A program made the position numbers and the translations under genes. From a virus: DNA of 38,470 bases. The notes below the pieces were generated by a model. That model saw nothing but the letters and a program-made list of their open reading frames with translations. It was not told the origin of the DNA and did no database searches. The stretch covers positions 1-38,470 of IMG/VR virus record IMGVR_UViG_3300045988_038517, one strand, 5' to 3'. Each line of letters begins with the position of its first letter. The stretch's first letter is position 1. Of the stretch, positions 1,775 to 32,727 are shown piece by piece.

Positions 1775-1825
1775 TGTTATCAGTCCTTTCTTTTTATGTT
1801 GGTGAATAGTCAAATAAAGCCCTCT

Positions 1826-4641: not shown

Positions 4642-4844
4642 TCATCCGCAGCCTCCTCTTCATCCAGTGTCGGGTCGTAGACCAGCTGGCCGTCCCGGAC
4701 TTTGTAGGTCTTCCGGAAAGGTCGCCCATCCGGGATGCTTTCCATGTACAGGACGCCGTCCGGAGTTGGATGTGCGTTGTATGCCGGGTCAACGCTTCCG
4801 ACGCTCATAATGGTTCCGTCCTCTTTGTAGGTAATCATGTACAT
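4638..4844 (-). CDS. Small tail-module protein, hypothetical
   Basis: 68 aa. AAGGAG lies 8 nt before the ATG, and the stop overlaps the next start (ATGA). The C-terminus is acidic. Confidence 0.5.
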   Translation of the reverse strand: MYMITYKEDGTIMSVGSVDPAYNAHPTPDGVLYMESIPDGRPFRKTYKVRDGQLVYDPTLDEEEAADE

Positions 4845-4856
4845 CCAAAAATCTCC

Positions 4857-6776
4857 TTACATCAACCCGTAAACGGAACATGGAACGCAGCAGGTGTCAT
4901 GTTTGCTAAACTTCACGCCAACAGCGCCTTCTTTGTAATATCCAGCTTGTCCAAATGTTATCCCGCTATATGAAACGTGGACTCTTCGGACTCTCGGATA
5001 GTCCCACACACGGCTTGCAATCGACCAAATTCCATTGATGGGGAAAACGGTATACTGCAAGTCGCTTCCGTTCACTCCGATGCCGTCCAAACCGGTGTAG
5101 TATTCACCGAATCCAATCACAATGGCGGAATATGGGCGCAATCGGCCATCGTTGCAGATCACAGCGCCATCGCCCATGCCGCTGTCGGGGTCGCCGTTCT
5201 CCCAAATTTTGTCCTGTCGAATGCCGAAGAATGTAATCTTTCCGGAATCGATGGTGCAGCTTCCGTTGCCGTCGGTGATGGAGATGCTGTCCGATTGGAT
5301 GTTGACCATGCTGGAATCGTTGAGGACCTTTACGCCGTCATGGGTGATCTGCACCCGCTTGCCGGGCAGGGATTCATGCCGGATGATCAGACCGTCGGTC
5401 TCGCTCCATTCCAGAAAGTTTGTCGCGGTCTTGGCTGCTTCTGTCACGTTTTTGTCCGTTTTCTTCAGATGCTCGATGAGCTGCTGGTTATAGCTTTCTG
5501 AGGCTGCGTTGCTCTCATCCAGCAGGTTCGTCTTGCCGAGGTTTTCCACATGCCGGTCGGTCAGGGTGCGGCGGGTCATGCCGAAGCTGTACTCTTTCTT
5601 TTCGGGGTGGTCGAGCGGCTCGGTCAGCTTGGAGCAGAGCATAATGGCGTCGACACTGTGCGGCGCGCTCAGAATGTGGGCATAGCAGGCAAAGGTCAGG
5701 CGCTCGGTGTCGTAACCGGCATCCACAAGGTCCACGGCCTTGATGGTGTAGCTCGTGACCATCAGATGGTTCTGCTGAAGCGCCTGCACACCGGCGGCAA
5801 AGGTATCGTTGGCGCTGTCGGTGTCGAACTCCACGATGCGCGCAAGGACGCCGAACTTTTTGACGGCGTCGGTGTTCTCGATGTAGCCATCCTCCAGATC
5901 GTACCGGTATCCGGACGGCGGCAGATATTTCTGGATGGTCGCGGAGTCGGTATCCATGATGCCGTAGCGCTCCTCGTGCTCATCCGTGTATTTCCCCAGC
6001 CCGCCGGGGAGCCACTTGAACTTATACTTCCACCGGGTCTCCTTCACGGTGTGCTTGTTGCCCACCGGATAGATGCGGGTGTATAAGCCGTTCGTGTCGG
6101 TCTTTTCGGTCAGGTCGAGCAGGTTGACGCCGTACTCGATCTTTTGGGCCGTCACCCGCTTTTCTTCCACTGCCTGGTCGCAATAGTTCAGGACATTGTA
6201 ACCCGTCGCTGCGTCAAACGTGCAGTAGGCGTACCCGCCGAAGACCTTGAGCACCAGCTTGTCGATGATGTCCCAGCACTTGCCGTAGTCCTCGCCGACG
6301 CCGTACTGGTCTGCGTCGCCGAAATGGACCACCTGGTCGCCCAAGGCAGCCGTCACGGTGCCCAGCTCGAACATCTTCATCTTCTGGCCGACCTGCGCGT
6401 TGTGCACGTCGATGAGGTGCTGCAAAAACTGCTTCAGTGTCCCCTCATAGTTGAAGGGCGTCACGCAGGAATCGTTAAAAAACGAGAGCGCACCCTCGCA
6501 GTAGACAGCCCGGTTGTTGTACCAGTCCGCCTCATGACTGAAGATGCGCCCGCGCCAGGTCTCCTTTCCGTCCTGCTTCACCACGACCACCGTGGACATC
6601 TTTTGCAGCATCTCGTACATCGGATGTTCACGGGTCATGGTGAAGGTCAGGCTCCCGCCCTTGCTGACCTCGCGGGTCAGTTTCGGGCTGAGGACCGTGC
6701 CGTTTTTGTTGCCCGGCTGATAGATGAGCAGCTCCGCGTCCGGGTTGCCGTAGGGATAGCCGTAGATTTCGTACAT
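4857..6776 (-). CDS. Tail-associated protein (Tal-like; phage minor structural protein / prophage-tail N-terminal region)
   Basis: 639 aa, immediately after the tape measure gene. The N-terminus (LSPKLTREVSKGGSLTFTM...VVVKQDGKETWRGRI) matches the pattern of Gram-positive siphophage Tal/anti-receptor N-domains. Confidence 0.65.
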   Translation of the reverse strand: MYEIYGYPYGNPDAELLIYQPGNKNGTVLSPKLTREVSKGGSLTFTMTREHPMYEMLQKMSTVVVVKQDGKETWRGRIFSHEADWYNNRAVYCEGALSFFNDSCVTPFNYEGTLKQFLQHLIDVHNAQVGQKMKMFELGTVTAALGDQVVHFGDADQYGVGEDYGKCWDIIDKLVLKVFGGYAYCTFDAATGYNVLNYCDQAVEEKRVTAQKIEYGVNLLDLTEKTDTNGLYTRIYPVGNKHTVKETRWKYKFKWLPGGLGKYTDEHEERYGIMDTDSATIQKYLPPSGYRYDLEDGYIENTDAVKKFGVLARIVEFDTDSANDTFAAGVQALQQNHLMVTSYTIKAVDLVDAGYDTERLTFACYAHILSAPHSVDAIMLCSKLTEPLDHPEKKEYSFGMTRRTLTDRHVENLGKTNLLDESNAASESYNQQLIEHLKKTDKNVTEAAKTATNFLEWSETDGLIIRHESLPGKRVQITHDGVKVLNDSSMVNIQSDSISITDGNGSCTIDSGKITFFGIRQDKIWENGDPDSGMGDGAVICNDGRLRPYSAIVIGFGEYYTGLDGIGVNGSDLQYTVFPINGIWSIASRVWDYPRVRRVHVSYSGITFGQAGYYKEGAVGVKFSKHDTCCVPCSVYGLM

Positions 6777-6781
6777 TGTTT

Positions 6782-9508
6782 TCAGTTCCCCCTTCCGCTC
6801 AGGACGGCCAGCTGGCCCAGATTTGCATTGACGTTCGGTGTGATGATGCGGGCCACCTCTTCGCCGTCCAGCGCGACGACGCCCTTGCCGGTCTCCGGCA
6901 GATACTTTTCCACAAACTCACAGATGCGGGCAATCTCGGTCTGCATCTTGCTCTGGTAGTCGCTCATCGTGGACTGTTGGCGGAAGGTGTAGGGGTCCGT
7001 GCGGTAGTCGTAGCCCGCAAAGGCCCGCTCGTTGCCGTACCAGTAGGCGTCCTGAATATCCTTGTAGGACAGCTTGGAGCTGGAGCTTGCCTTTTTCTCG
7101 GTCTGGTCCTTGTCCTTCGTGGCCCACTTGTAGATGCCGTAGCCCACAGCACCCACCGCCAGCACACCGGCCACGATGAGGCCGATCTGGGGGATGGACA
7201 GACCCAGTGCGGCCACCCCAGTGCCGGCCGTTGCAGCTCCTGCTGTTCCTGCAGCCCCGGCCGTTCCCGCAGCGACCGTTGCACCGCCTGCCCCGATAAG
7301 CTTGCCGATGCCGGAGACCACGCTGGAAATGCCGCCGGTGGCGTTGACGGCCTCGATGGTGGTCTTCAGGGTCTGCAGCGTCGTGACCAGCGTTTCAACG
7401 CTTGTTGCAAAATTGAGGGCCTGCGACACGCCGTTTGTGATGATCGTGAAAAAGTCACCGGCGTTCTGCAAGGTCTCGCTGTCGAAGAACTCGCCCAGGC
7501 TGGTCAGAGAGCTTCCAAAATCCGAAAACGCCGCATTGAACTCACTGATAAGGTTCTTGAACTTATTTGCTTGGGCGTTCGCGCGGTTGTTGTTCTTCTG
7601 GTATTCCTTTAACGCCTTGCTTGCAGCGTCGAGATTTTCCTCTTCTTCTGTGAGCAGATAACCGATCCGCAGTGTCTGTTCCGAGAACTCCCCGGTGCTG
7701 GCTGCGGACTCGTTGTAAGCGGCCTGCAGCTGGGCCACCATTTCGGCGGCAGCGCCGTAGTTGCTGTTCAGGGTGTCGTACTGGCTCACGACGGCCTGCG
7801 AGGTCTCCTTGCTGTCGGTCTCCACGCCGTCCATCAAGGTCTTGACCTTCGTGTAGGTCTCTAACGCCCCGTTGACGATGCGGGTGCCGGTCTCGGTGGC
7901 CATCTGCTCGATGTGCTCGGAGTTGTCCTGATATTTCTTCGTCACCGATTCGATGGTCGTAGAAACGCCGTTCTTCAGCGTCTGCGCGGTCTGCGTCAGG
8001 GTCGAGACCAGAGACTTCGAGGCGTCCTCATAGGTCTTCTGGGTCGTGGTGGTGACCTTGCCGTTCTCGTCTGTGACTTCTTTGGTGACCAGCTTGTAGT
8101 TTTTCACCACGCCGTTCACCAGCTCCTTGCCGGACTCGGTGGTGGTGCGGGTCAGCTGGTCATAGACCTTGCCGGTGCTGTCCTTGATGTGCTCGGTCAG
8201 CTCGGTGACGGAAGTCGTGATCTGCCCGTACTCATTGGAGGAATAGGACGTGGCCGCGTCGGTCAGGGCGGAGAGGACGGTCTTGGTGACGGTCTTGTTC
8301 TTGTTCTTGTCCGTGCCTCCGTTGCCGCCGCTGGTTATTCCGCTTCCTTCCTTTTCTTCAGCCTGCCGTTCCGTCCAGCTTTTGTTATAGATGCCTTTTC
8401 CGGCAAGTGCATCTTGTCGGCGGCGGTCACGGTTGCTTTGATGGTCTTGCGCGTCTCTGTACTCTTCGTAGCTGTCATAGTCAGAATAGGCGTCCTTTTT
8501 TAGAACATCATGATTCAGCCAATAACTTGCTTTGTCCAGAGCTGTAATCGCGGCGCTCCCAAGTTCGTTAAACTTCTGTTTTACGGAATCAATCGGCCCA
8601 CTCAAGCCAGTAATGGCACCAGCAAGTCCGAGCCAACCATCTTGTTTGTAGGCTTCCTGTGCCGCAACGACCATATCGTTCAGGTTGCCAATAACAACGC
8701 CGATGCCGCTTGAGAGGTCGCCCGTCATAAGCCCCGCCAGTTGGGAAACATTATCTTTCAGTGTGGAAATCCTGCCATTCATGGTCTGACTCTGGGTTTC
8801 CATACTGTTGTAGTAACGTCTGCCCTCTTCGCTGGCAGCGATTAACGCACTAGACAGCAGGTCGTAGCTGACCGTCATATTCTGGACTTCTTCCACTGTT
8901 TTTCCCGTGTAGTCGGCCAGCACCTGATAGATGTTGATTCCAGCAAAAGCAAACTGCTTAATGTCTACTGCGCTAGCTTTTCCAACATTGGCGATCTGCT
9001 GAAGGTTTGCGGCCATACGGGAAAGCTCATCGTTTCCGCCGCCGGTAGCAGATACAGCATCGCCCAGAGCCATAATGACCTTACGAGAACGGCCAGCGTT
9101 TTCGCCTGCACTGATGAGCAGCTGGTTTGCCTGCGTCAGAGATGCAACGTCAAACGGTGTGCGGGCTGCGTCTTCCTGAATGGCCTGCATAGCTTTCTGT
9201 GCTGCCTGTGCGCTGCCCAGCATATTGGTGAAGCCCGTGGTGTACTTTTCTATCTGCGCGTTGTAAGAAACGCCTGTCTCTACAAGGTTTTTTGCTAGTC
9301 CGGCTGCTTTTGTCCCAAGCGAGGTAAGCATATTTGCAAGGACAGTCGCTTTTGCGCTGGCTGCTGCAAACTGGCTTGCCATTCCTGCAACGCCATTCCC
9401 GGCGGTGTTTGCACTGCGGTTCAGCGAATTTGCGGCGCTTTGCGTCTCTTTTCTGGCCTGCTCGATGCCCTGCTCATACTCGGAGGTATCAAGCCCCAAA
9501 GTGGCCAT
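6782..9508 (-). CDS. Tail tape measure protein
   Basis: 908 aa, the longest ORF, located just after the G/GT chaperone. It is Ala/Thr/Gln-rich and helical, with a hydrophobic Gly/Ala segment (GAGGATVAAGTAGAAGTAGAATAGTGVAALGLSIPQIGLIVAGVLAVGAVG). Confidence 0.9.
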   Translation of the reverse strand: MATLGLDTSEYEQGIEQARKETQSAANSLNRSANTAGNGVAGMASQFAAASAKATVLANMLTSLGTKAAGLAKNLVETGVSYNAQIEKYTTGFTNMLGSAQAAQKAMQAIQEDAARTPFDVASLTQANQLLISAGENAGRSRKVIMALGDAVSATGGGNDELSRMAANLQQIANVGKASAVDIKQFAFAGINIYQVLADYTGKTVEEVQNMTVSYDLLSSALIAASEEGRRYYNSMETQSQTMNGRISTLKDNVSQLAGLMTGDLSSGIGVVIGNLNDMVVAAQEAYKQDGWLGLAGAITGLSGPIDSVKQKFNELGSAAITALDKASYWLNHDVLKKDAYSDYDSYEEYRDAQDHQSNRDRRRQDALAGKGIYNKSWTERQAEEKEGSGITSGGNGGTDKNKNKTVTKTVLSALTDAATSYSSNEYGQITTSVTELTEHIKDSTGKVYDQLTRTTTESGKELVNGVVKNYKLVTKEVTDENGKVTTTTQKTYEDASKSLVSTLTQTAQTLKNGVSTTIESVTKKYQDNSEHIEQMATETGTRIVNGALETYTKVKTLMDGVETDSKETSQAVVSQYDTLNSNYGAAAEMVAQLQAAYNESAASTGEFSEQTLRIGYLLTEEEENLDAASKALKEYQKNNNRANAQANKFKNLISEFNAAFSDFGSSLTSLGEFFDSETLQNAGDFFTIITNGVSQALNFATSVETLVTTLQTLKTTIEAVNATGGISSVVSGIGKLIGAGGATVAAGTAGAAGTAGAATAGTGVAALGLSIPQIGLIVAGVLAVGAVGYGIYKWATKDKDQTEKKASSSSKLSYKDIQDAYWYGNERAFAGYDYRTDPYTFRQQSTMSDYQSKMQTEIARICEFVEKYLPETGKGVVALDGEEVARIITPNVNANLGQLAVLSGRGN

Positions 9509-13586: not shown

Positions 13587-13662
13587 TGGTGCCGCTTGCA
13601 GGGGTCGAACCTGCAACTACCCGGTTATGAGCCGGGAGCACTGCCAGTTGTGCGAAAACGGC
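13587..13662 (-). tRNA. tRNA-Met(CAT), elongator-like (or Ile2 if lysidine-modified), CCA encoded
   Basis: Hand-folded as 76 nt. Acceptor GCCGTTT/AAGCGGC, D arm GCAC-AACTGGCA-GTGC, anticodon arm CCCGG-CTCATAA-CCGGG, variable TAGTT, T arm GCAGG-TTCGACC-CCTGC, A73, CCA. The G1-C72 pair and absence of a 3xGC anticodon stem argue against an initiator. Confidence 0.85.
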
Positions 13663-17194: not shown

Positions 17195-18850
17195 TTATTT
17201 TCCGGGCTTGTGCCACACAAGTTCCATGGCGTAGCGTGTAGCGTCTATGTGGTGGTTATCGTGGTCGGGGTATCCGGGCAGCGGCTCGCCGTTCTTGTCC
17301 GCGTCATACTCGTACTCGGTGAACTCCTTCAGAGTGTCCGGGCAGCGCACCGGGTCTATTACGATGGCGGTCAGACTTTGCAGCCACTTCACGCCCTGCC
17401 CAACGCTGTTCGGACCTTTTATCGCGGGCAAGCATTTCATTCCCCATGCAGTATAGTCGGTGCAGCTCTTTGGCTCGGCGCTGTCACCGGTCAGGCGCTC
17501 GCTCTCTGGGTGCTCCATAACGTGCCTGTCTTGCAGCATCTTGAACGTGTCCTCGTTTCGTGTGCGCCGCACGGTGATCTCGTCATAAATATACAGGGTC
17601 TTACGGGCTGCGTCGTAACTCATGCAGTTGTAGGCAAAGGGGTCAGGATACCAGCCCCAGTCAATGCCGTGGTACTTGCGCTCAAATTTGGAAGGGTCTA
17701 TCTTTTCTGCCTTGATGTTGGTGAAGATTTCCTTTCCGCAGCCGGTCACCTCGCCCAGATACTCGTGCTTGTAGGCGATCAGGTTGTGTTTCTTTAGATT
17801 TTCTGCATCATCAAGGAAACGCCTGCCAAGCCACTCCTGCGGCACCATCGTGTAGTCGGAGTGCTGGATGATCTTGCGGTCGCGCACTTCCAGAGCATAA
17901 CGGTTTGCCCAGTTACGGGGTGATGCAGGCGGGTTGAAGCTCTTGAACGTGAAAGAGAAATCTCCTCCACGCAGACAGGACTGTTCCACGTTGCGGATTT
18001 GTTCCTCTCCGTCATACTGGTCTAGCTCTTCAAACCATAGAATGCCGATGTATCCGCGCGGCAGTTTGATAGATTTGAGCTTTCCGGGGTCATCCAGACC
18101 AAAAAATAGAATCTTCTGACCTGTGTTTTTGTTTGTCATCTCCATTGGAGAGACCGTACATTTCCACATTCCGGGTTCCAGCTGGTCAACCGCCCACTGC
18201 ATCTGTGCATACACGGACGTTCGCAGGGTATTGCCCACCTTTCGGATGCATACCGCGTTGCAATCCGGGTGCAATTGCAAAAGTTTGATAATGCCGATGC
18301 TGCAGAAGCTGGATTTTGTGGATCCGCGTCCACCCTTTTCCAGCGCTTCGTCTGCATCGCCTCTCATGATCTTCTGCCATGTCGGCAGGAATTGCGGTGC
18401 CAAAAGCTCAAACAGCCTGTTTTCGGAAACTGCCGGGCTTGCGCTTTCGCTTTCTTCTGTTTTTTCCTCTTTGTTGTCCCAGCCAAAGTTAAACTTCAGG
18501 CTAAATTGTGCTCCGTTCGTTCCGTCCCGGTCGAACAGCCGCTCTTCGGAGTATTTTTCGCACAGGGCTTTTGCGCGCGTAATCGTGTTTACAAATTCCT
18601 GCTTGCCTTGATATTCCAGTAGCGATTTTCGCGATGCAAACCCCAAAGCCAACGCTAATCCGGTGACAGTGGGCGGGCGCTGATGCAGATAGATTTCATT
18701 TCCGTACTTATCCAGAATCGGAGCTCCATTCGCGTCCTGCAAGAGTTCTCCTTCGCAGTCGGAAAAGTAAGCATCTATCTTTTCCTGCATTTCTGCGGAA
18801 TTTTTATATTTCGGCGGTGCACCTACCGGATTCTTTTTCTTGTAGGTCAT
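17195..18850 (-). CDS. Terminase: small-subunit-like N-terminal module fused to a PBSX-type large subunit
   Basis: 551 aa from the ATG at 18850 (GAGGTGG RBS). Aa ~10-128 (GAPPKY..PPTVTGLALALGFASRKSLLEY..FSLKFNFGW) looks like a TerS DNA-binding module. An acidic linker follows, then Walker A KGGRGSTKS and a nuclease half. No separate terS ORF lies nearby. Confidence 0.85.
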   Translation of the reverse strand: MTYKKKNPVGAPPKYKNSAEMQEKIDAYFSDCEGELLQDANGAPILDKYGNEIYLHQRPPTVTGLALALGFASRKSLLEYQGKQEFVNTITRAKALCEKYSEERLFDRDGTNGAQFSLKFNFGWDNKEEKTEESESASPAVSENRLFELLAPQFLPTWQKIMRGDADEALEKGGRGSTKSSFCSIGIIKLLQLHPDCNAVCIRKVGNTLRTSVYAQMQWAVDQLEPGMWKCTVSPMEMTNKNTGQKILFFGLDDPGKLKSIKLPRGYIGILWFEELDQYDGEEQIRNVEQSCLRGGDFSFTFKSFNPPASPRNWANRYALEVRDRKIIQHSDYTMVPQEWLGRRFLDDAENLKKHNLIAYKHEYLGEVTGCGKEIFTNIKAEKIDPSKFERKYHGIDWGWYPDPFAYNCMSYDAARKTLYIYDEITVRRTRNEDTFKMLQDRHVMEHPESERLTGDSAEPKSCTDYTAWGMKCLPAIKGPNSVGQGVKWLQSLTAIVIDPVRCPDTLKEFTEYEYDADKNGEPLPGYPDHDNHHIDATRYAMELVWHKPGK

Positions 18851-18881
18851 TGCCACCACCTCTCAAAAAATCGCTTAAAAC

Positions 18882-18906
18882 AAAAGCCGCCCGAAAAATC
18901 GAACGG
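18882..18906 (-). pseudogene. tRNA 3'-half remnant (T-loop TTCGATT plus GGGCGGCTTTT)
   Basis: Minus strand CCGTTCGATTTTTCGGGCGGCTTTT aligns with the 3' half of the pseudo-tRNA at 19240-19264 (TGGTTCGATTCCAAGGGCGGCTTTT). No 5' half is present. Confidence 0.4.
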
Positions 18907-18921
18907 TTAAAATATCGAATG

Positions 18922-19057
18922 TGCCGCCAGCTGGATTTGAACCAGCACCCACGGAATGGATGTGCGCAGTGGTTGGCTGTGCAGTGATGTTCCCGTGGTG
19001 TCACCAACGTTGTCCCGCCTTAAATGGGCGGCGCTCTCCCAATTGAGCTATGGCGGC
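18922..19057 (-). tRNA. tRNA-Lys(TTT)-like gene with A at position 33 and a 68-nt insertion at the variable-loop position; no encoded CCA
   Basis: Hand-folded. Acceptor GCCGCCA/TGGCGGC (7 bp), TA, D arm GCTC-AATTGGGA-GAGC, anticodon arm CCGCC-CATTTAA-GGCGG. A 68-nt insert that can form a bulged hairpin follows, then T arm GCTGG-TTCAAAT-CCAGC and A73. Confidence 0.55.
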
Positions 19058-19160
19058 ATATAATAAGCAGCTTTGCCTGTCGTACACAAAGCCGCTGCAT
19101 CTGGAACTTTCGCGGCCAGATGCCCCGCTATCTGCGCAGCCCCCTCACAGGGTACGCAGC

Positions 19161-19236
19161 TGGCATTCCCGGCAGGGCTCAAACCTGCAGCCTGCGGTTT
19201 TGGAGACCGCTGTTCCATCACTTGAACTACGGGAAT
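19161..19236 (-). tRNA. tRNA-Trp(CCA), CCA encoded
   Basis: Hand-folded as 76 nt. Acceptor ATTCCCG/CGGGAAT, D arm GTTC-AAGTGATG-GAAC, anticodon arm GCGGT-CTCCAAA-ACCGC, variable AGGCT, T arm GCAGG-TTTGAGC-CCTGC, G73, CCA. Confidence 0.85.
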
Positions 19237-19242
19237 ATAAAA

Positions 19243-19310
19243 AGCCGCCCTTGGAATCGAACCAGCCGTGTCTACACACGCACCGCGCTCCAAACTGCGC
19301 TCAGGCGGCC
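19243..19310 (-). pseudogene. Degenerate tRNA-like gene (68 nt) lacking a functional anticodon arm
   Basis: The acceptor (GGCCGCC/GGCGGCT), D arm (GCGC-AGTTTGGA-GCGC) and T-loop TTCGATT are recognisable. The anticodon position holds only a 5-bp/4-nt hairpin (CGTGT-GTAG-ACACG), and the T stem has mismatches. Confidence 0.5.
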
Positions 19311-19344
19311 ATATAAAACAGCCCTGGTTCTCCGCCAGGGCTGT
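19311..19344 (-). terminator. Intrinsic terminator inside the tRNA cluster
   Basis: Minus strand 10-bp stem ACAGCCCTGG/CCAGGGCTGT with a 7-nt loop, followed by TTTTATAT. It abuts the 5' end of the pseudo-tRNA. Confidence 0.6.
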
Positions 19345-19460
19345 TGTTTGACGCACATCCCGTCGGGAAGTCTACCCACACCTTCAGGGATTCAAAGCTT
19401 TCTCTCGTAGCACGGGAGGTTAAGCGTGCAGCTTTGTGGGGGATGAGTCCATGCGCCATC

Positions 19461-19562
19461 TGGTGCGAAACCGTGGAGTCGAACCACGCGGAGAGGGAGG
19501 CGATCACCCTGCCCCATTCGCCCAGAACTGCCGTTCTGAACGGAGCCGTGCCGAAATCTCGC
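19461..19562 (-). ncRNA. 102-nt tRNA-like RNA with canonical acceptor, T arm and CCA but a non-canonical core
   Basis: Acceptor GCGAGAT/GTTTCGC (two G-U pairs), T arm CGTGG-TTCGACT-CCACG, A73, CCA. The 65-nt interior folds as CGG/CCG (7-nt loop), CAGAAC-GGCA-GTTCTG and GGCGA/TCGCC (14-nt loop). No 5-bp/7-nt anticodon arm could be drawn. Confidence 0.45.
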
Positions 19563-19732
19563 ATAGAATCAGCCCGCGAAACGTTGGTGATCTGTGCCTA
19601 CGGACAGCACAGGGCCGGAACGTTTGGGGGCTGCATTGCATCGGTGGGCCTTTTCGGCTCTGCCGATACTACTACAATACCACCGATTCCACTCAGGTGT
19701 CGATGATATCCACTGTCGAAAAGTACCACGAA

Positions 19733-20248
19733 TTATTGTGCAAAACTGTCAAAATCGCAGAACGGTGTATCCTCCCATATCTCTGCCAGCTGACGAAATC
19801 CCTCCGAAATGGCTGTGGAGACCGTCCGCGAGTTTGAATAACCGACCTCTCCGGCGGCGGCTGCCCTGGTCTTTCCCTCCACATAGCAGAGCGTGATACA
19901 CCGACTGCGCTTGATGGACGCAGGGTCCGCGTTGAGGAGATAAGCGAAGTCGATGGCTTCTTTCTGCATCTCGGCGTACTGGCATTTCATCTCGTGCAGA
20001 TGCTTTTCGGCGTCCATCGCGGCATCGGTATTGTTTCCGACCTTATCGCTGACGCCAGAGCGCCCGGACGCACCGGATACGCTGGAAGTAGTCGTTGTAG
20101 CTGCGTTCTTGAGGTCTGCGATGCGCTCCTTCTGCTGCAAAATAAGAGATCTCATTCGGGGCAGGCGTTCAAAATAGCTCCGTACTTCCAGCGCGCGGGG
20201 GTCCTCTGTTTTCGGCGCGTCTGCGTCAGGTGTCCATGTGCGGGTCAT
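19733..20248 (-). CDS. Probable late-gene transcriptional activator (sigma-70 region-4-like HTH; RinA/ArpU/DUF1492-like)
   Basis: 171 aa starting at MTRTWTPD, with GGAGG 7 nt upstream. The C-terminal RCITLCYVEGKTRAAAAGEVGYSNSRTVSTAISEGFRQL is a region-4-type HTH. It is the last early gene before the packaging module. Confidence 0.55.
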   Translation of the reverse strand: MTRTWTPDADAPKTEDPRALEVRSYFERLPRMRSLILQQKERIADLKNAATTTTSSVSGASGRSGVSDKVGNNTDAAMDAEKHLHEMKCQYAEMQKEAIDFAYLLNADPASIKRSRCITLCYVEGKTRAAAAGEVGYSNSRTVSTAISEGFRQLAEIWEDTPFCDFDSFAQ

Positions 20249-20277
20249 GTATCTGCCTCCAATCATATATTGTTCGA

Positions 20278-20358
20278 TTATTTTGCATAAGGCCCTCCAC
20301 CTAAATATCCAACAAAAAGCGCGATAGAAATGATTATCAGTGCGGTTATGACTCTCAT
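20278..20358 (-). CDS. 26-aa hydrophobic micro-ORF coupled to rusA
   Basis: MRVITALIIISIALFVGYLGGGPYAK. The ATG overlaps the RusA stop (ATGA). It forms a single TM-like helix and is too short for the ORF track. Confidence 0.3.
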   Translation of the reverse strand: MRVITALIIISIALFVGYLGGGPYAK

Positions 20359-20735
20359 ACTCTTTCATCCTCCATTTCTTCGATCCAAATTTCAGCTCTG
20401 GGGTTTTTCTTGTCGTAATTTACCCGACTGCCATCGTGGGCTGCCACGATTCTGCTGTTGTCGTCTTCCAGCACACTTGCCTTCACCAGTATGTCGCAGG
20501 TTGCTTCGATCAGGTTGGCAAGGTCAACCTTGCGCCGGGTAGCCATGTAGTACACGCACCGCACGTTCACGCGGGCAGAAATAGGCTCAGGATGGGCGCG
20601 TATCTGCCATAGACAGCTTGTCTGGTAATCCTCAAACGCCGCGCTTGGGGCCACGTATCGCCGTCCTCCGCGCCCTTGCAGGATGCGGGCGGAGTTTTTC
20701 TTTGTGCGGGGGTCGCCGTAAAGGGTCAGGTGCAT
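20355..20735 (-). CDS. rusA: Holliday junction resolvase, RusA family
   Basis: 126 aa. GDPRTKKNS... and DLANLIEATCDILVKASVLEDDNSRIV match the RusA catalytic Asp-rich motif pattern. Confidence 0.8.
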   Translation of the reverse strand: MHLTLYGDPRTKKNSARILQGRGGRRYVAPSAAFEDYQTSCLWQIRAHPEPISARVNVRCVYYMATRRKVDLANLIEATCDILVKASVLEDDNSRIVAAHDGSRVNYDKKNPRAEIWIEEMEDERV

Positions 20736-27745: not shown

Positions 27746-28054
27746 CGGCTCCTAGTTAAACTGATTCAAAAGGACGGTGATTTCATTGACCCAACTTTTG
27801 AGCCAGCCAGTTCCAGACACGAGCAAGTGCGTGAAGCGCTAGGGCTTACAAGGCGGCGCCGACCCGCCAAAGGAAGCGGCGCACCCATAGCCCTGCAAGT
27901 TGTTTTTGCAGCCCAGACGTTACTTTTGCGGCATACATGACCGAAAAAGACGTGCAAACGCGCATGTTTGCATTACCGCCGGGGTGCAAGTGCGTTCTGG
28001 TGACAAATCGGTGAAAAGTCTGTCTGTGAAACAACCGCAGGCAGATTTTTTCTT
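27746..28054 (+). ncRNA. Candidate ~300-nt structured RNA, antisense to the early-operon leader
   Basis: Bounded by the promoter at 27711-27739 and the terminator at 28019-28054. No ORF has an RBS. Several GC-rich helices and hairpins are present (27842-27893, 27893-27911, 27953-27972). Confidence 0.4.
28019..28054 (+). terminator. Intrinsic terminator
   Basis: 8-bp stem TCTGTCTG/CAGGCAGA (one G-U pair), 11-nt loop, then TTTTTTCTT. Confidence 0.6.
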
Positions 28055-28073: not shown

Positions 28074-28102
28074 TTGAAAAAGTTTACAAAACGTGCTATT
28101 AT
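28074..28102 (+). promoter_or_regulatory. Sigma70-type promoter TTGAAA-17-TATTAT upstream of the cI-like gene
   Basis: 5/6 match at -35, 17-nt spacer and 5/6 match at -10. It lies face to face with the minus-strand consensus promoter at 28189-28217. Confidence 0.5.
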
Positions 28103-28188
28103 TGTGTTGCAGACACATAGTATAGATAGCTTGGGCGGGATAGCCGCCGGGGCTTTGTGTTTTGTTAGCTTTTTTAACTTACAAGAGC

Positions 28189-28217
28189 ATTATACAGCTA
28201 GCAAAGTTAGCTGTCAA
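28189..28217 (-). promoter_or_regulatory. Consensus sigma70 promoter TTGACA-17-TATAAT, probable early lytic promoter
   Basis: Minus strand aaaaacgTTGACAgctaactttgctagctgTATAATgct, perfect at both hexamers and in spacing. It sits about 60 bp from the cI-like start and points toward cro. Confidence 0.65.
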
Positions 28218-28238
28218 CGTTTTTTACTAACTTTGCTA
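28199..28238. promoter_or_regulatory. Operator-like 12-bp inverted repeat TAGCAAAGTTAG / CTAACTTTGCTA
   Basis: Arms at 28199-28210 (inside the promoter spacer) and 28227-28238 (just upstream of the -35), 16 nt apart. Confidence 0.5.
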
Positions 28239-28274
28239 ACATTTGTAAGGATGCACGAAAAAGGAGTTTCTTTT

Positions 28275-28628
28275 ATGAGCACTTTTTACGACAACTATAT
28301 TAAGCTGTGTGCATCTTGTGGCAAAAAACCAACTACGGTGTCAAAAGAAATCGGGCTTTCAAATGCTGCGGCAACTGGGTGGAAGAATGGAAAAACCCCA
28401 TCTGCCATAACCAAGCAAAGACTGGCTGATTATTTTGGGATCTCTGTTTCCGAACTTACCGGCGAAGAGCAAAAAGAAAAGCCCAGCACCCCGGAGGATG
28501 CTGAGCGTGAATCGCACGGGCAGGCTATATTAGATAAGTATAATATGCTTGACCCGGCAACACAGGCCATGTTTGAAAAAATGCTCGATGCCGCGCTTGA
28601 GGCGGCAAAAGGGAAAGAAAATGGTTGA
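28275..28628 (+). CDS. cI-like repressor, XRE-family HTH
   Basis: 117 aa starting at MSTFYDNYIKLCASCGKKPTTVSKEIGLSNAAATGWKNGKTPSAITKQRLADYFGISVSEL (HTH_3 pattern). AAAGGAG RBS. The ORF-track 184-aa form has no RBS. Confidence 0.8.
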   Translation: MSTFYDNYIKLCASCGKKPTTVSKEIGLSNAAATGWKNGKTPSAITKQRLADYFGISVSELTGEEQKEKPSTPEDAERESHGQAILDKYNMLDPATQAMFEKMLDAALEAAKGKENG

Positions 28629-30946: not shown

Positions 30947-31540
30947 ATGAGTTATTTTACGGCGGCTAAAATTGGCACTGCGCTTGCAAAAGCGCGTGTG
31001 GAAGCGGGCTTGAGCCAGCGGGAAATGGCGCACCTGATCGGAATGACCGAGCGCACCGTGCAGAACTGGGAAAAAGGGCAGTCAAGCCCAGACGGTGACG
31101 AGATCATGGACTGGTTCACCGCCTGCGGGGCTTCCCCGCTTGCTGCAATGCAAGAGATGCTGCACCCGGAGCTGTATCGGAAGCAGGCCACCAACATGAC
31201 GGACGAGGAGCTGGATGCAGCGATAGCGGGCTTTTTGGACACCTCTCCACGCATCGTTAAAGAAATGATTCTCTTCATCGTGCTGGGCAAACACGGCAGC
31301 TATCCCCCGGCGGCGATCGCCGAAATCTGCGCAAACCTTCACACGCCGCTGCAAAACAAGGTTTCGGTCTGCGGTCAGGTGCTGGATAACTATAACTGCG
31401 CCGTTGCCACCCATACGGACCCCGTGCCAGATGATGTGCACCCGCCGTTGGATTTGCTGGAGACCTCGTACAAGGCAGGCAAGGAAGCTTCCAGACGCGG
31501 AGAAACCGCCTATATGACCAAGAAAGGGCAAAAAGAATGA
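30947..31540 (+). CDS. XRE-family HTH protein with a C-terminal domain, translationally coupled to the integrase
   Basis: 197 aa. ..ALAKARVEAGLSQREMAHLIGMTERTVQNWEKGQSSP is an HTH_3 pattern. The stop overlaps the int ATG (ATGA). Confidence 0.75.
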   Translation: MSYFTAAKIGTALAKARVEAGLSQREMAHLIGMTERTVQNWEKGQSSPDGDEIMDWFTACGASPLAAMQEMLHPELYRKQATNMTDEELDAAIAGFLDTSPRIVKEMILFIVLGKHGSYPPAAIAEICANLHTPLQNKVSVCGQVLDNYNCAVATHTDPVPDDVHPPLDLLETSYKAGKEASRRGETAYMTKKGQKE

Positions 31541-32727
31541 ACTGTATCAGATGCAAGCGAGAGATCCCGGACGGCGCTGCATTCTGCCCATGGTGTGGCA
31601 AGCGTCAGCCGGAGACCGCACAGCCCGCGCAAAGAAAAAAGCGCCGCCGCCCAAAGGGCAGCGGCAGTGTGCGAAAATTGACCGATTCCCATAGATCCCG
31701 CCCGTGGATGGCCAGAACGGGCAAAGGAGAGCTTTTGGGGATGTTCGCCACGTCATCCGAAGCGGTCATTGCATTGGACGAGTACAACGCCAAGCATTCG
31801 AGCGTCGCGCGGATGCGGTACACCTTCAAGGATGTCTATGAACGATGGAATGCTGTGCATTTCAAGGAAGTGGGTGAAAATGGCCGGTACAGCTACGAGC
31901 AGGCATATACAAAGGCCTCTTCCCTCTGGGATTGCGAAATGCGGGAGCTGAAGACCGAGGACTATCAAAAGATCATCACTGAGCTGGCCGAGGCCGGGCT
32001 TTCGCGAAGCACCTGTGAGAAGCAGCGGCAGCTCTTCAGCCAGCTTTGCAAGTGGGCCATGCAGAACGATATCATCTCAATCAACTATGCGGAGGGGCTG
32101 AAGCTGCCCGCGCCCCCGCCCAAAAAGGAACGCACCCTCACAGACGAAGAGATCTCCAAGATTCAGGCTCTTGCCGATGATCGCAGCAAAAACAACCGGT
32201 TCCGCTTTACCGCTCAATTTTCCATTGTGCTGGTTTATACTGGGATGCGCATTGATGAGCTGCTTTCCATGCGCCGGGATGATGTGCATCTGGATGCCGG
32301 GTATCTGATCGGCGGCGAAAAGACCGATGCAGGCCGTCAGCGAATGATTCCAATTCTCGACCCCATCCGCACCATCCTGGCCGGTTGGATGCTGGATAGC
32401 CTGGGCAGCGAGTATCTGCTCCCAACGGCCAACGGGCGCAAGAAGGACGTGAACACGGTCGAGCATTCTTTCCGCCGGATGATGGAGGTCTGCGAGATCA
32501 ACAGGCCCAACACGCCGAAGGAAAAGCGCGTCACCCCGCATTCTCTTCGCCGAACCGCTGCGACCCGCCTTGTGGAAGGCAAGGCAGAACCGACTGCCGT
32601 ACAGGCCATTCTTGGCCACTCCGATTTCACCACTACGGCGGACTATTACACCGCCCACAGCACCGATTATCTGGCCGAAGAAATGAAAAAGTTCAAGTAT
32701 GTAAAGGAACAAAAAGAGAACAAATAG
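31537..32727 (+). CDS. int: Tyrosine site-specific integrase with an N-terminal zinc ribbon
   Basis: 396 aa. CIRCKREIPDGAAFCPWCG. The catalytic region has ..RIDELLSMRRDDV.., HSLRRTAATRL and ILGHSDFTTTADYYTA (R..HxxR..Y pattern). Confidence 0.9.
   Translation: MNCIRCKREIPDGAAFCPWCGKRQPETAQPAQRKKRRRPKGSGSVRKLTDSHRSRPWMARTGKGELLGMFATSSEAVIALDEYNAKHSSVARMRYTFKDVYERWNAVHFKEVGENGRYSYEQAYTKASSLWDCEMRELKTEDYQKIITELAEAGLSRSTCEKQRQLFSQLCKWAMQNDIISINYAEGLKLPAPPPKKERTLTDEEISKIQALADDRSKNNRFRFTAQFSIVLVYTGMRIDELLSMRRDDVHLDAGYLIGGEKTDAGRQRMIPILDPIRTILAGWMLDSLGSEYLLPTANGRKKDVNTVEHSFRRMMEVCEINRPNTPKEKRVTPHSLRRTAATRLVEGKAEPTAVQAILGHSDFTTTADYYTAHSTDYLAEEMKKFKYVKEQKENK

What the first reader, a model, noticed from the sequence alone, without database searches (positions are those of the whole stretch)
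18922..19057. tRNA-Lys(UUU)-like gene with A33 and a 68-nt structured insertion
Folding the minus strand by hand gives an otherwise textbook tRNA:
- acceptor GCCGCCA/TGGCGGC
- TA
- D arm GCTC-AATTGGGA-GAGC
- anticodon arm CCGCC-CATTTAA-GGCGG
- T arm GCTGG-TTCAAAT-CCAGC
- A73, with no encoded CCA

Two features are abnormal.
(1) The anticodon loop reads C-A-TTT-A-A, so the nearly invariant U33 is an A next to a UUU anticodon.
(2) 68 nt (GACAACGTTGGTGACACCACGGGAAC...CATTCCGTGGGT) sit where a 4-5 nt variable loop belongs. They can form a bulged stem of about 9 bp (ACCACGGGAA / TTCCGTGGGT) capped by a second imperfect helix. That is far longer than any class II variable arm and far shorter than a group I intron.

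An 11-mer within the insert (TCACCAACGTT, 19001-19011) recurs inverted at 19580-19590, upstream of the other aberrant tRNA-like gene.

Established knowledge: tRNA-Lys(UUU) is the target of anticodon nucleases such as PrrC and the PARIS effector, and phage T5 carries a tRNA-Lys variant that bypasses PARIS.

Inference: this could be a nuclease-resistant or decoy tRNA-Lys, a tRNA carrying a novel small intervening element, or a decaying pseudogene.
Basis: partly seen in the sequence, partly recalled or inferred. Interest (0 to 1): 0.7.

Follow-up and report, generated by a model that had tools for sequence, protein, structure and literature searches.

The report
Phage tRNA with pseudoknotted variable domain
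This gut-phage gene is not a broken tRNA but one member of a large, conserved and apparently undescribed family of tRNA-shaped RNAs that carry a folded 65-85-nt extra domain where the variable loop should be and a deliberately abnormal anticodon loop, most likely as a countermeasure against bacterial enzymes that destroy tRNAs during infection.

Summary
Window 18922-19057(-) matches the Rfam tRNA model (51.1 bits) with one 68-nt insertion at the variable-loop position and an anticodon loop CAUUUAA (A33, UUU).

It is not a pseudogene or a random indel.
- I found at least 260 loci, 144 distinct genes and 9 acceptor-stem scaffolds. All come from uncultivated, almost all human-gut, phage or metagenome contigs.
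- Every copy carries the insert, and no insert-free version exists in IMG/VR.
- The acceptor, anticodon and T stems all show compensatory changes.

The insert is one conserved module: a 5' motif YUGRYGAYAC, a basal stem P1, an apical hairpin P2, and a 4-bp pseudoknot between the motif and the P2 loop. All four R/Y combinations of that pseudoknot are compensated (UGGU:ACCA, UGAU:AUCA, UGAC:GUCA, UGGC:GCCA).

The anticodon loop is the variable part.
- CAUUUAA is kept on four different stems.
- Other loops are GAGUUAA, CAGUUAA, UAGCUAA, UUUCUAA, GYGAUAA and some 6- or 8-nt loops.
- Position 33 is usually not U.
- Nearly all readable anticodons are NNU followed by A37-A38.

The upstream 11-mer complement is specific to this window. 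No Rfam family or paper describes the insert.

Best reading (0.4): a nuclease-proofed tRNA mimic used against tRNA-targeting defences. A protected decoder is the main rival (0.3).

The parts
18922..19057 (-). Whole V-domain tRNA-like gene (136 nt, Lys-type loop, no encoded CCA)
   Evidence: Rfam RF00005 at 51.1 bits with one insertion; cloverleaf fold; homologues in at least 260 loci
19051..19057 (-). Acceptor stem 5' strand GCCGCCA (pairs with 18923-18929)
   Evidence: All 7 pairs show compensatory double changes across scaffolds; 99.5% of cells paired
19033..19048 (-). D arm GCUC-AAUUGGGA-GAGC with A14, A15, G18, G19 and A21
   Evidence: Read directly; the D stem is invariant in all copies; the D loop is shortened to 5-6 nt without GG in one subfamily
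19015..19031 (-). Anticodon arm CCGCC-CAUUUAA-GGCGG
   Evidence: All 5 stem pairs covary in the unanchored sample. The same loop occurs on the stems CCGCC/GGCGG, GCGGG/CCCGC, GUGGG/CCCAC and CUGCC/GGCGG
19025..19025 (-). A33 in place of the near-universal U33
   Evidence: A33 in all 106 distinct main-scaffold genes. The non-A33 version of the same arm occurs in only 1 unrelated viral contig, against at least 119 with A33
19022..19024 (-). Anticodon-position triplet UUU
   Evidence: Read directly. Replaced by GUU, GCU, UCU, GAU or GGU in relatives, always NNU
18947..19014 (-). 68-nt variable-region insert (V-domain), between tRNA positions 45 and 46
   Evidence: Insertion in the Rfam alignment; always present, 52-86 nt long; no insert-free form
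18998..19013 (-). Conserved 5' motif ACAACGUUGGUGACAC (family consensus N-C-A-(A)-C-R-Y-U-G-R-Y-G-A-Y-A-C)
   Evidence: Conserved across all classes and scaffolds; outside the family it occurs only by chance inside coding sequence
19003..19006 (-). Pseudoknot strand UGGU (pairs with ACCA at 18970-18973)
   Evidence: Four compensated versions in one register. AUCA occurs in 17/18 UGAU genes against 0/126 others; GUCA in 21/42 UGAC genes against 1/102 others; GCCA in 4/4 UGGC genes
18991..18998 (-). P1 5' strand CCACGGGA (pairs with 18949-18956, UUCCGUGG)
   Evidence: 6 of 8 pairs have double changes; different P1 sequences in each class
18963..18983 (-). P2 hairpin UGCACAG-CCAACCA-CUGCGCA (one A x C mismatch, repaired to G-C in L195)
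   Evidence: Folded in every class, with a different stem sequence in each; variant seen
18949..18956 (-). P1 3' strand UUCCGUGG, followed by G110-U111 (U at the position-48 equivalent, able to pair with A15)
   Evidence: GGU before the T stem is conserved in all sequences
18930..18946 (-). T arm GCUGG-UUCAAAU-CCAGC
   Evidence: 3 of 5 pairs have double changes and 100% of cells are paired
18922..18922 (-). Discriminator A73
   Evidence: Varies freely among near-identical genes: T 61, A 42, G 2, C 1 among distinct genes
18887..18906 (-). Intrinsic terminator directly after the gene, ahead of the terminase RBS and ATG (18850)
   Evidence: CCGTTCGATTTTTCGGGCGG followed by CTTTTGTTTT. It is also retained in relatives that lack the V-domain gene

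Best explanation
The gene encodes a tRNA-shaped RNA of a phage-specific family, called here V-domain tRNAs.

Maturation and core fold (inferred). It is transcribed within the tRNA array in the leader of the late operon. It is presumably matured like a tRNA: RNase P at the 5' end, trimming and CCA addition at the 3' end. It should fold into a normal L-shape, because U8, A14, A15-U48, G18G19 and the T loop are all kept.

The V-domain (shown by covariation). Between positions 45 and 46 it carries a compact domain. P1 is a class II-like variable arm. P2 folds back and is locked by a 4-bp pseudoknot to the conserved 5' strand. The domain therefore sits against the 3' strand of the anticodon stem and the variable region.

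The anticodon loop (shown). It keeps a Lys-type U34-U35-U36-A37-A38 face, but the 5' half is remodelled (A33).

Function (inferred). My reading is that the two remodelled places are where defence tRNases recognise or cut tRNAs: the 33/34 loop junction, the anticodon-stem 3' strand and the variable arm. The RNA would act as an uncleavable stand-in for host tRNA-Lys(UUU) when an abortive-infection nuclease is triggered. I lean towards it working mainly as a bait or competitor that occupies the nuclease, rather than as an efficient decoder. Relatives retarget the same scaffold by changing positions 32-35.
For: Real, selected RNA:
- Rfam tRNA hit.
- At least 260 loci and 144 distinct genes.
- Compensatory changes in the acceptor, anticodon, T and P1 helices.
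- Pseudoknot compensated in all four R/Y states.
- No insert-free form.

The loop is under selection, not drifting:
- CAUUUAA is kept on four different compensated stems.
- A33 is invariant in 106 distinct main-scaffold genes.
- Near-identical genes differ only at loop positions 32 and 34 (CAUUUAA against GAGUUAA).

Features that fit a mimic better than a decoder:
- A, C or G at position 33; G32; 6- and 8-nt loops; C37 variants that still have intact V-domains (about 9% of loci).
- The discriminator flips A/U among near-identical genes.
- The D loop lacks G18G19 in one subfamily.
- A canonical tRNA-Lys(UUU) sits beside it in 15 of 198 loci, and in 5 of 6 CAGUUAA loci.

Accessory cargo: the gene is present or absent among phages with 95-97% identical terminase.

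Precedents:
- PrrC, PARIS AriB and a bacterial Schlafen all target tRNA-Lys(UUU). AriB and Schlafen cut the anticodon stem at about 29-32 and 39-41 (PMC11464382; PMC13056530).
- PtuAB and Septu cut the tRNA-Tyr variable arm. SP15 tRNA-Tyr needs its longer variable loop to neutralise Retron-Eco7.
- Phage tRNAs carry loop mutations at nuclease sites (PMC10264068).
Against: - There is no expression, processing, cleavage or binding data.
- The host is unknown, so no cognate nuclease can be named.
- Some scaffolds have fully canonical loops (UUUCUAA, CUGGUAC, GUGAUAA). That fits real decoders at least as well as baits.
- All characterised phage counter-defence tRNAs work mainly by replenishing the decoding pool.
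- The NNU bias of the anticodons could simply reflect supply of A/U-rich ANN codons.
- That the V-domain shields the anticodon stem is a geometric inference only.
Confidence: 0.4

Rival explanations
1. Protected decoder. The RNA is a working tRNA, charged by LysRS (by AsnRS, SerRS, ArgRS, IleRS or ThrRS in relatives) and used on the ribosome. The V-domain and A33 only make it resistant to host tRNases, so that it replenishes the decoding pool as the T5 tRNA-Lys and SP15 tRNA-Tyr do.
For: - The full cloverleaf and tertiary-pair nucleotides are conserved.
- Several scaffolds have canonical 7-nt loops with U33 and a purine at 37.
- The anticodons belong to synthetases that read the anticodon as the main identity element, or, for Ser, the long variable arm. 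That is established tRNA-identity knowledge (review PMC9976931, listed but not read here), and it makes anticodon shifts on one scaffold feasible.
- The genes sit among ordinary tRNAs in arrays.
- In most loci it is the only Lys-type tRNA.
- Known precedents act by replenishment.
- The low-GC gene 1826-4093 is rich in AAA and AAT.
Against: - A33 removes the U-turn nucleotide and is invariant in the largest subfamily. G32-A33, C33, G33, 6- and 8-nt loops and C37 variants persist with intact V-domains.
- The discriminator is unconstrained.
- A 65-85-nt domain faces the side from which class II synthetases (Lys, Asn, Ser, Thr) approach, and it may clash on the ribosome (inference from established structural knowledge).
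- Core genes prefer AAG and AAC.
Confidence: 0.3
2. tRNA-scaffolded RNA with another target. The V-domain and loop bind and modulate some other tRNA-recognising host factor. Candidates are the t6A37 or wobble-modification machinery, a T-box leader, or a MenT/AbiE-type nucleotidyltransferase that reads long variable arms. Alternatively, the V-domain could be a small-molecule aptamer or a new ribozyme.
For: - U36-A37-A38 is nearly universal and the anticodons are the ANN (t6A-bearing) set.
- The G34 anticodons GUU, GCU, GAU and GGU match NNC codons, which T-box specifiers favour (my own knowledge).
- The MenT3 paper listed (PMC11541572) reports a preference for tRNA-Ser. I did not read its text, and the link to long variable arms is my inference.
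- The V-domain is a conserved pseudoknotted fold with invariant unpaired nucleotides (GAYAC, ARYCA), as ligand- or protein-binding RNAs have.
Against: - No specific partner gene travels with it.
- The discriminator varies, which a T-box interaction would constrain.
- No Rfam riboswitch or ribozyme match even at E <= 10.
- None of these ideas explains the non-U33 preference better than nuclease evasion does.
Confidence: 0.15
3. Intervening sequence. The 68 nt are removed after transcription (a new kind of small intron or self-excising element) to give a tRNA of about 70 nt.
For: The position is precise. The flanks (G44-A45 ... G-G-U48) would leave a plausible 5-nt variable loop. Archaeal tRNA introns are known at non-canonical positions (my own knowledge).
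Against: - No insert-free allele exists anywhere in IMG/VR.
- The insert co-diverges with its host gene across 9 scaffolds.
- No group I, group II, HDV-like or other ribozyme match. Its topology differs from HDV/theta ribozymes.
- I saw no bulge-helix-bulge motif at the junctions, by eye only.
- Excision would still leave the abnormal A33 loop.
- Bacteria have no known tRNA splicing endonuclease (established knowledge).
Confidence: 0.05
4. Non-functional relic: an eroding tRNA-Lys pseudogene with a chance insertion, or a DNA-level signal (attP, pac site, cis antiterminator for the late operon).
For: ARAGORN fails to call it. It lies next to the terminase, with a terminator between them. The phage is temperate.
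Against: - Strong RNA-level covariation in five helices plus the pseudoknot.
- Hundreds of conserved copies.
- The integrase is 12 kb away.
- Close relatives keep the same terminator and terminase without the gene.
- It also occurs inside large tRNA arrays of unrelated phages.
Confidence: 0.03

Closest known systems
Phage counter-defence tRNAs (T5 tRNA-Lys against PARIS; SP15/T5 tRNA-Tyr against Retron-Eco7 PtuAB; phage tRNA-Lys against PrrC170; mycobacteriophage loop-mutant tRNAs)
   Same: These are phage-encoded tRNAs for exactly the species that defence nucleases hit (Lys above all). Their substitutions lie in the anticodon stem-loop or in a lengthened variable loop, and those changes are required for escape.
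   Different: The known cases differ from host tRNAs by a few substitutions or 5 extra nucleotides, and they remain canonical decoders. Here the variable region is a 65-85-nt pseudoknotted domain, U33 is replaced, and some members cannot decode at all. Resistance has not been tested.
Class II (long-variable-arm) tRNAs: Leu, Ser, bacterial Tyr, Sec; and allo-tRNAs (PMC5389517)
   Same: An extra helix emerges between positions 45 and 46, with 1-3 unpaired nucleotides before the T stem. P1 occupies that place.
   Different: Class II arms are 10-24 nt and form a simple hairpin that starts right after position 45. Here 15 conserved nucleotides precede the stem, and there is a second helix and a pseudoknot. 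The anticodons are Lys, Asn, Ser(GCU), Arg, Ile and Thr, mostly class I-type tRNAs. The acceptor/T architecture is the normal 7/5, not the 8/4 or 9/3 of allo-tRNAs.
tmRNA and viral tRNA-like structures
   Same: tRNA-like acceptor and T-arm module combined with pseudoknots; some are phage-encoded.
   Different: tmRNA lacks an anticodon arm and carries a tag reading frame, and ARAGORN finds no tmRNA here. In plant-virus TLSs the pseudoknot builds the acceptor stem itself. Here the complete cloverleaf is present and the pseudoknot lies in the variable region.
Theta (minimal HDV-like) ribozymes next to gut-phage tRNAs (PMC10879173)
   Same: Small pseudoknotted RNAs of about 60-70 nt, physically associated with tRNA genes of human-gut Caudoviricetes.
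   Different: Theta ribozymes lie 3' of the tRNA and cut at its 3' end. They have the nested double-pseudoknot HDV topology. The insert lies inside the tRNA, its pseudoknot partner is within a hairpin loop, and no HDV-family Rfam hit appears.
tRNA introns (bacterial group I in the anticodon loop; archaeal bulge-helix-bulge introns at non-canonical positions)
   Same: Extra sequence interrupting a tRNA gene.
   Different: Wrong position and size for group I. I saw no bulge-helix-bulge motif. No intron-less alleles exist. The element is conserved as a structured domain.

Membership tests
tRNA (Rfam RF00005) | Cloverleaf scoring above the curated gathering score | tested here: met
   51.1 bits against 29; model positions 1-71 all matched
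tRNA (Rfam RF00005) | Helices maintained by compensatory change | tested here: met
   Acceptor 7/7, anticodon stem 5/5 and T stem 3/5 pairs with double changes; 96.7% paired against 24-48% when slid
tRNA (canonical decoder) | 7-nt anticodon loop with U33 and a purine at 37 | tested here: not met
   The window has a 7-nt loop and A37 but A33. In the family, position 33 is A, C, G or U, and there are 6- and 8-nt loops and C37 variants
tRNA (canonical decoder) | Variable region of 4-5 nt (class I) or 10-24 nt (class II) | tested here: not met
   68 nt here; 52-86 nt in the family
tRNA (canonical decoder) | Aminoacylation and ribosomal decoding | not testable with these tools
   Needs charging assays, tRNA-seq or translation assays
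Class II tRNA | Simple variable-arm hairpin starting right after position 45; Leu, Ser, Tyr or Sec identity | tested here: not met
   15-nt conserved strand before P1, then P2 and a pseudoknot; anticodon UUU
Phage counter-defence tRNA | Phage-encoded tRNA of a nuclease-targeted species, with changes at known recognition or cleavage sites | tested here: met
   Temperate siphovirus context. Lys-type loop with A33, and a remodelled variable region next to the anticodon-stem 3' strand. Target sites taken
Phage counter-defence tRNA | Resists cleavage and rescues infection in the presence of the defence system | not testable with these tools
   Requires the host or a heterologous nuclease assay
tRNA pseudogene | Erosion: broken pairs, sporadic non-conserved indels, patchy conservation | tested here: not met
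Group I intron in tRNA | More than 200 nt, P1-P9 core, inserted in the anticodon loop | tested here: not met
   68 nt at position 45/46; no Rfam intron hit at E <= 10
Archaeal-type tRNA intron | Bulge-helix-bulge motif at the exon-intron junctions; intron-less alleles or paralogues exist | tested here: inconclusive
   I saw no bulge-helix-bulge motif at the junctions, by inspection only. There are no insert-free alleles, and the context is bacterial phage
HDV-like / theta ribozyme | Nested double pseudoknot (P1 partner lies between the P3 and P4 hairpins), catalytic C in J4/2, cleavage site at its own 5' end abutting a tRNA 3' end | tested here: not met
   The pseudoknot partner lies inside the P2 loop; the element is internal to the tRNA; no Rfam HDV-family hit; definition
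tmRNA | tRNA-like domain without an anticodon arm, plus a tag-peptide reading frame | tested here: not met
   ARAGORN finds no tmRNA; a complete anticodon arm is present

The most novel reading that the evidence does not exclude
The V-domain is a dedicated RNA anti-defence module. A tRNA body with a swappable anticodon-loop 'address' delivers a pseudoknotted domain that jams or traps a tRNA-directed immune nuclease. That would be an RNA-only inhibitor class that phages retarget by mutating loop positions 32-35. A second unexcluded novelty is that these are working tRNAs, which would mean that the ribosome and the synthetases tolerate a domain of about 20 kDa in the variable region and a purine at position 33.
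Probability: 0.3. Interest if true: 0.9.

Novelty: new variant of a known kind. Interest (0 to 1): 0.8.

Why it matters
tRNA-targeting nucleases (PrrC/RloC, PARIS, retron-PtuAB, Septu, Schlafens) are emerging as a major arm of bacterial immunity. The known viral answers are tRNAs with a few substitutions. This family would be a far more radical answer. [quoted passage not shown]

It gives three things:
- A defined RNA fold, with a covariation-supported pseudoknot, for structural study.
- A direct test of how much deviation (A33, a bulky variable domain) the translation apparatus or the defence nucleases tolerate.
- A marker for finding unknown tRNA-directed defences in gut Firmicutes.

It is also a possible natural template for nuclease-proof or scaffolded tRNAs.

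Tried and rejected
1. Upstream 11-mer complement (19580-19590) as a pairing partner. It is absent from 120 homologous loci, although it is unexpected by chance within the window.
2. Prophage or host search in 185,579 reference genomes with the anticodon-arm pattern. It gave 28 unrelated chance hits, so there is no host.
3. Host through the exact terminase. Only 20-50-kb metagenomic contigs were returned.
4. Any annotated or cultured phage with these scaffolds. None was found, apart from unannotated faecal contigs such as MT839005.
5. Insert-free 'empty site'. 0 hits.
6. Known RNA families for the insert. Nothing at E <= 10.
7. HDV-like/theta ribozyme. Wrong topology and position.
8. Hammerhead (CUGAUGA) and box C/D k-turn (UGAUGA) resemblances of the motif. 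The partner elements (GAAA, CUGA) are absent or not conserved, by inspection.
9. Programmed frameshift helper. The tail-chaperone slippery site is GGGTTTT, not Lys or Asn.
10. Simple codon supply. Core genes prefer AAG and AAC.
11. Local hairpin GUC/GAC proposed by RNAalifold. It is not maintained in the window class or in the paralogue, whereas the pseudoknot is.
12. Two collection scans were too unspecific and needed heavy filtering.
13. MAFFT misaligns P1 and P2 between classes, so those helices were tested on register-preserving concatenated segments and per-sequence folds.
14. Literature searches found no description of such tRNAs.
Full report
**1. Observation**

On the minus strand, window 19057-18922 reads as a complete cloverleaf:
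- acceptor GCCGCCA/UGGCGGC
- U8A9
- D arm GCUC-AAUUGGGA-GAGC
- anticodon arm CCGCC-CAUUUAA-GGCGG
- T arm GCUGG-UUCAAAU-CCAGC
- A73, with no encoded CCA

Sixty-eight nucleotides sit between the anticodon stem and the T stem. Rfam's tRNA covariance model matches exactly these coordinates at 51.1 bits (gathering score 29; E = 3e-8), with one insertion after model position 44. ARAGORN reports only the neighbouring tRNA-Trp (19161-19236) and a tRNA-Met (13587-13662). The minimum-energy fold reproduces the cloverleaf and a two-helix structure in the insert (z = -3.1).

**2. A large conserved family, not a one-off**

It also occurs in a human-faecal phage contig in GenBank that is 84% identical over the cluster. 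Every copy has an insert of 52-86 nt at the same place.

The same arm with any other base at position 33 occurs in a single unrelated 128-kb phage, as an ordinary tRNA-Lys without an insert. A scan for the A33 arm followed by a normal-length variable loop and T arm found nothing.

The first set was anchored on the anticodon arm, so I drew two further samples that were not:
- Loci fetched through the neighbouring terminase.
- A metagenome scan anchored only on the D arm, the insert motif and the T arm (95 loci, nearly all human-gut assemblies).

Across everything held, a generic detector finds the architecture in 260 loci, with 144 distinct genes. There are nine different acceptor stems: GCCGYYR, GCUGCCA, UGCGGUG, CGCGGUG, GCGCCAA, GCGCACA, GCGGCGG, UUUGCAG and CGGAACG.

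None was found by an exact-pattern scan (anchored on this family's anticodon stem) of 185,579 reference genomes. None was found in annotated phage records.

**3. The RNA structure is under selection**

I used an 82-sequence alignment of register-preserving core segments. These are real segments, joined without the length-variable D loop and insert interior. On it, 96.7% of cells form standard pairs, against 91.5% in column shuffles (0 of 500 reach the observed value) and 24-48% when the partners are slid. Eleven pairs show changes on both sides: two in the acceptor stem, three in the T stem and six of the eight in P1.

RNAalifold on 20 full-length genes from the diverse scaffolds gave an independent check. 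All seven acceptor pairs, all five anticodon-stem pairs and three T-stem pairs have compensatory double changes. The D stem never varies.

The nucleotides that build the tRNA core are kept: U8, A14, A15 with U at the position-48 equivalent, G18G19 in most copies, and the UUCRAAU T loop.

**4. Anatomy of the insert (V-domain)**

All classes share one plan:
- After G44 comes a conserved strand of about 15 nt, N-C-A-(A)-C-R-Y-U-G-R-Y-G-A-Y-A-C. In the window this is ACAACGUUGGUGACAC (19013-18998).
- A basal stem P1 follows. Its sequence differs completely between classes: CCACGGGA/UUCCGUGG here; CGCAAGAG/CUCUUGUG, ACGAGAA/UUUCGUG, CAUGCGU/GCGUAUG and GUCGGU/GCCGAC elsewhere.
- Then come an internal loop, an apical hairpin P2 with a 7-10-nt loop, and an invariant G-G-U before the T stem.

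The four motif bases preceding GAYA are complementary to four bases at the 3' side of the P2 loop, and both sides change together:
- UGGU:ACCA in the window class and in the 68-nt and 81-86-nt classes
- UGAU:AUCA
- UGAC:GUCA
- UGGC:GCCA in a paralogous scaffold

So both variable positions occur in both states, and all four combinations are compensated. The complements are class-specific. AUCA is present in the central insert of 17 of 18 UGAU genes and of 0 of 126 others. GUCA is present in 21 of 42 UGAC genes and 1 of 102 others; the remaining 21 are one subclass with GUCC, which keeps three pairs plus a shifted G-U. GCCA is present in 4 of 4 UGGC genes.

I take the pseudoknot as established by covariation. 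Only four nucleotides (GAYA) link it to the base of P1. P2 must therefore fold back along P1, giving a compact domain seated at the hinge beside the 3' strand of the anticodon stem. That last step is a geometric inference.

The insert enters exactly between positions 45 and 46, where class II variable arms emerge.

**5. The anticodon loop is the variable, selected element**

CAUUUAA is retained on the stems CCGCC/GGCGG, GCGGG/CCCGC, GUGGG/CCCAC and CUGCC/GGCGG. Near-identical genes differ only in the loop: CAUUUAA against GAGUUAA, in genes with the same 68-nt insert class.

Loops seen:

| Loop | Position 33 | Anticodon type |
|---|---|---|
| CAUUUAA | A | Lys UUU; 198 of 260 loci |
| GAGUUAA, CAGUUAA | A | Asn GUU |
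| UAGCUAA | A | Ser GCU |
| UAGAUAA | A | Ile GAU |
| GCGAUAA / GUGAUAA | C / U | Ile GAU |
| UUUCUAA, CUUCUAA | U | Arg UCU |
| UUGCUAA | U | Ser GCU |
| CUGGUAC / CUGAUAC | U | Thr GGU / Ile GAU; on an 8-bp stem |
| UGGUCUAA | - | 8-nt loop |
| GUUGCA, UUUGCA, CAGCGA | - | 6-nt loops |
| CGAUGCA | G | C at position 37 |

Three regularities stand out:
- Position 33 is usually not U.
- U36-A37-A38 is nearly universal.
- Every readable anticodon is NNU, the ANN-decoding (t6A37-bearing) set.

About 9% of loci carry loops that cannot decode yet have intact P1, P2 and pseudoknot. The discriminator flips between U and A among near-identical genes (T 61, A 42, G 2, C 1). One subfamily has a 5-6-nt D loop without G18G19.

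**6. Context**

The window is a temperate siphovirus. Its genes include:
- integrase 31537-32727
- repressor-like gene 28074-28628
- anti-repressor
- RecT, SSB, RusA
- late regulator 19733-20368
- terminase 17195-18850
- portal, MuF, major head protein, tape measure

The gene is the last cassette of a tRNA and tRNA-like array in the roughly 900-nt leader between the late regulator and the terminase. An intrinsic terminator follows it directly (18906-18887).

The nearest cultured terminases belong to Clostridium and Blautia phages, at 40-45% identity. The host is unknown.

The cassette is accessory. Phages with 95-97% identical terminase have it, lack it, have a different insert class, or have two copies (L163).

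tRNA-Trp is the usual neighbour (150 of 198 Lys-type loci). A canonical tRNA-Lys(UUU) accompanies it in 15 of 198 loci, and in 5 of 6 CAGUUAA loci. One divergent member sits inside a 17-tRNA array of an unrelated 69.5-kb phage that also has a normal tRNA-Arg(UCU).

**7. What it is not**

- Pseudogene or random indel: excluded by sections 2-4.
- Mobile or spliced intron: unlikely. There are no empty sites. The insert co-diverges with the host gene. There is no intron or ribozyme match. I saw no bulge-helix-bulge motif.
- HDV-like theta ribozyme: these are known beside gut-phage tRNAs, but they lie 3' of the tRNA and have a different topology.
- Hammerhead or k-turn: the resemblances of the motif lack their partner elements.
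- Upstream 11-mer: window-specific.
- Frameshift helper: the slippery site is GGGTTTT.
- Plain codon supply: core genes prefer AAG and AAC. One low-GC gene (1826-4093) is AAA/AAT-rich.
- attP, pac site or cis antiterminator: contradicted by the RNA-level covariation, by relatives that keep the terminator without the gene, and by occurrence in unrelated tRNA arrays.

**8. Mechanism**

Shown: a tRNA-shaped RNA family with a conserved pseudoknotted variable domain and a selected but non-canonical, retargetable anticodon loop.

Inferred: tRNA-like maturation; placement of the V-domain against the anticodon-stem 3' strand; and the function.

From the literature:
- PrrC targets tRNA-Lys(UUU). That it cuts 5' of the wobble base is my own knowledge.
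- PARIS AriB cuts tRNA-Lys between residues 40 and 41. T5 escapes with stem-loop substitutions.
- A bacterial Schlafen cuts positions 29-32 and 39-41 of tRNA-Lys(UUU), and also hits Met and Ile(CAU) tRNAs.
- PtuAB and Septu cut the tRNA-Tyr variable arm at U47/C48. SP15 tRNA-Tyr needs its own, longer variable loop to neutralise Retron-Eco7.
- Phage tRNAs generally carry loop mutations at nuclease sites.

The two remodelled regions of this RNA coincide with those target sites. I therefore read it as a nuclease-proofed stand-in for the targeted tRNA.

Whether it still decodes is open:
- For a bait or competitor (0.4): the non-U33 loops, the G32 and C37 and 6-nt variants, the free discriminator, the truncated D loops, and co-occurrence with canonical tRNA-Lys.
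- For a protected decoder (0.3): the canonical-loop members, anticodons from anticodon-read synthetases, and the array context.
- Other tRNA-binding targets remain possible (0.15): the t6A or wobble-modification machinery, T-box leaders, MenT/AbiE-type enzymes.

**9. Novelty and limits**

No Rfam family and no paper found describes a tRNA with such a variable domain. A large survey of phage structured RNAs mentions tRNA-like candidates only generically. I file it as a new variant of a known kind (phage non-canonical or counter-defence tRNAs), not as a new category, because the function is untested.

Limits:
- The anticodon-stem invariance in the first set is circular; it is resolved.
- P2 covariation rests on per-class folds, not on one alignment.
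- There are no expression data.
- The host is unknown.

Noticed in passing
window 19461-19562 (-): Another tRNA-like gene: acceptor GCGAGAU/GUUUCGC, T arm CGUGG-UUCGACU-CCACG and an encoded A73-CCA. In place of an anticodon arm it has a 6-bp hairpin with a 4-nt loop, plus a G/C-rich possible pseudoknot (GGGGCAGGG / CCCUCUCC). Relatives carry different tRNA-like cassettes at this slot.
   Followed up: partly
window 19243-19309 (-): A third aberrant tRNA-like gene. The D arm is normal. The anticodon arm is replaced by CGUGU-GUAG-ACACG, and the T stem has only about 3 bp. Rfam gives only a weak tRNA-Sec match (16.6 bits). In relatives the same gene carries G32-A33 loops (GAGAUAU, GAAAUAU), so purines at 32/33 recur in this phage group.
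   Followed up: partly
window ~19311-19460 (-): A conserved non-coding stretch of about 150 nt between two tRNA-like genes. It is closed by a long-range helix (GGCGCAU ... AUGUGCGUC) and ends in an intrinsic terminator (CAGCCCUGG-CGGAGAA-CCAGGGCUG-UUUUAUAU). It has no Rfam match and may be another structured RNA.
   Followed up: no
window 27827-28050 (+): FuFi-1 RNA (Rfam RF02986, 67.1 bits against a gathering score of 59.6), with a roughly 50-nt insertion. It lies immediately upstream of the repressor-like gene 28074-28628 in the lysogeny module.
   Followed up: no
window 1826-4093 (-): A 755-aa gene with a polysaccharide-deacetylase domain at 36% GC in a genome of about 55% GC. It is strongly AAA- and AAT-biased (50/16 and 38/13), unlike all other genes. 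It is probably a recent acquisition, and it is the only gene that would profit from extra Lys(UUU) or Asn tRNAs.
   Followed up: partly
window 13587-13662 (-): A canonical tRNA-Met(CAU) lies alone inside the head-morphogenesis module, far from the tRNA array.
   Followed up: no
L151:1067-1143, L158:1881-1957, L168:1945-2021: Close relatives (96-97% terminase identity) carry, in the same leader, a tRNA with an 8-nt anticodon loop CUAUUGAA (an extra A before UUG) and an A x A mismatch in the stem. It is homologous to a normal tRNA-Asn in L162.
   Followed up: no
L537 (Ga0209407_1000290), 473-7604: An unrelated 69.5-kb phage has an array of 17 tRNAs. The array includes a CUA-anticodon (amber-suppressor-type) tRNA, and a V-domain gene with the 8-nt loop UGGUCUAA at 1267-1404 next to ordinary tRNAs.
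   Followed up: no
window 18850-19700 and loci L149-L208: The leader upstream of the terminase behaves as a cassette hotspot. Each tRNA or tRNA-like unit is preceded by a UUAUAU-like sequence, and units are gained, lost or swapped among phages with nearly identical structural genes. L151 has a methyltransferase-like ORF inserted there.
   Followed up: partly
window 17195-18859 (-): The terminase is a fusion of small-subunit (GP3_package) and large-subunit domains. The mechanical ORF start (GTG at 18859) is three codons upstream of the real ATG (18850), which follows the RBS GAGAGGUGG. Only the 551-aa form is on record in public assemblies.
   Followed up: yes
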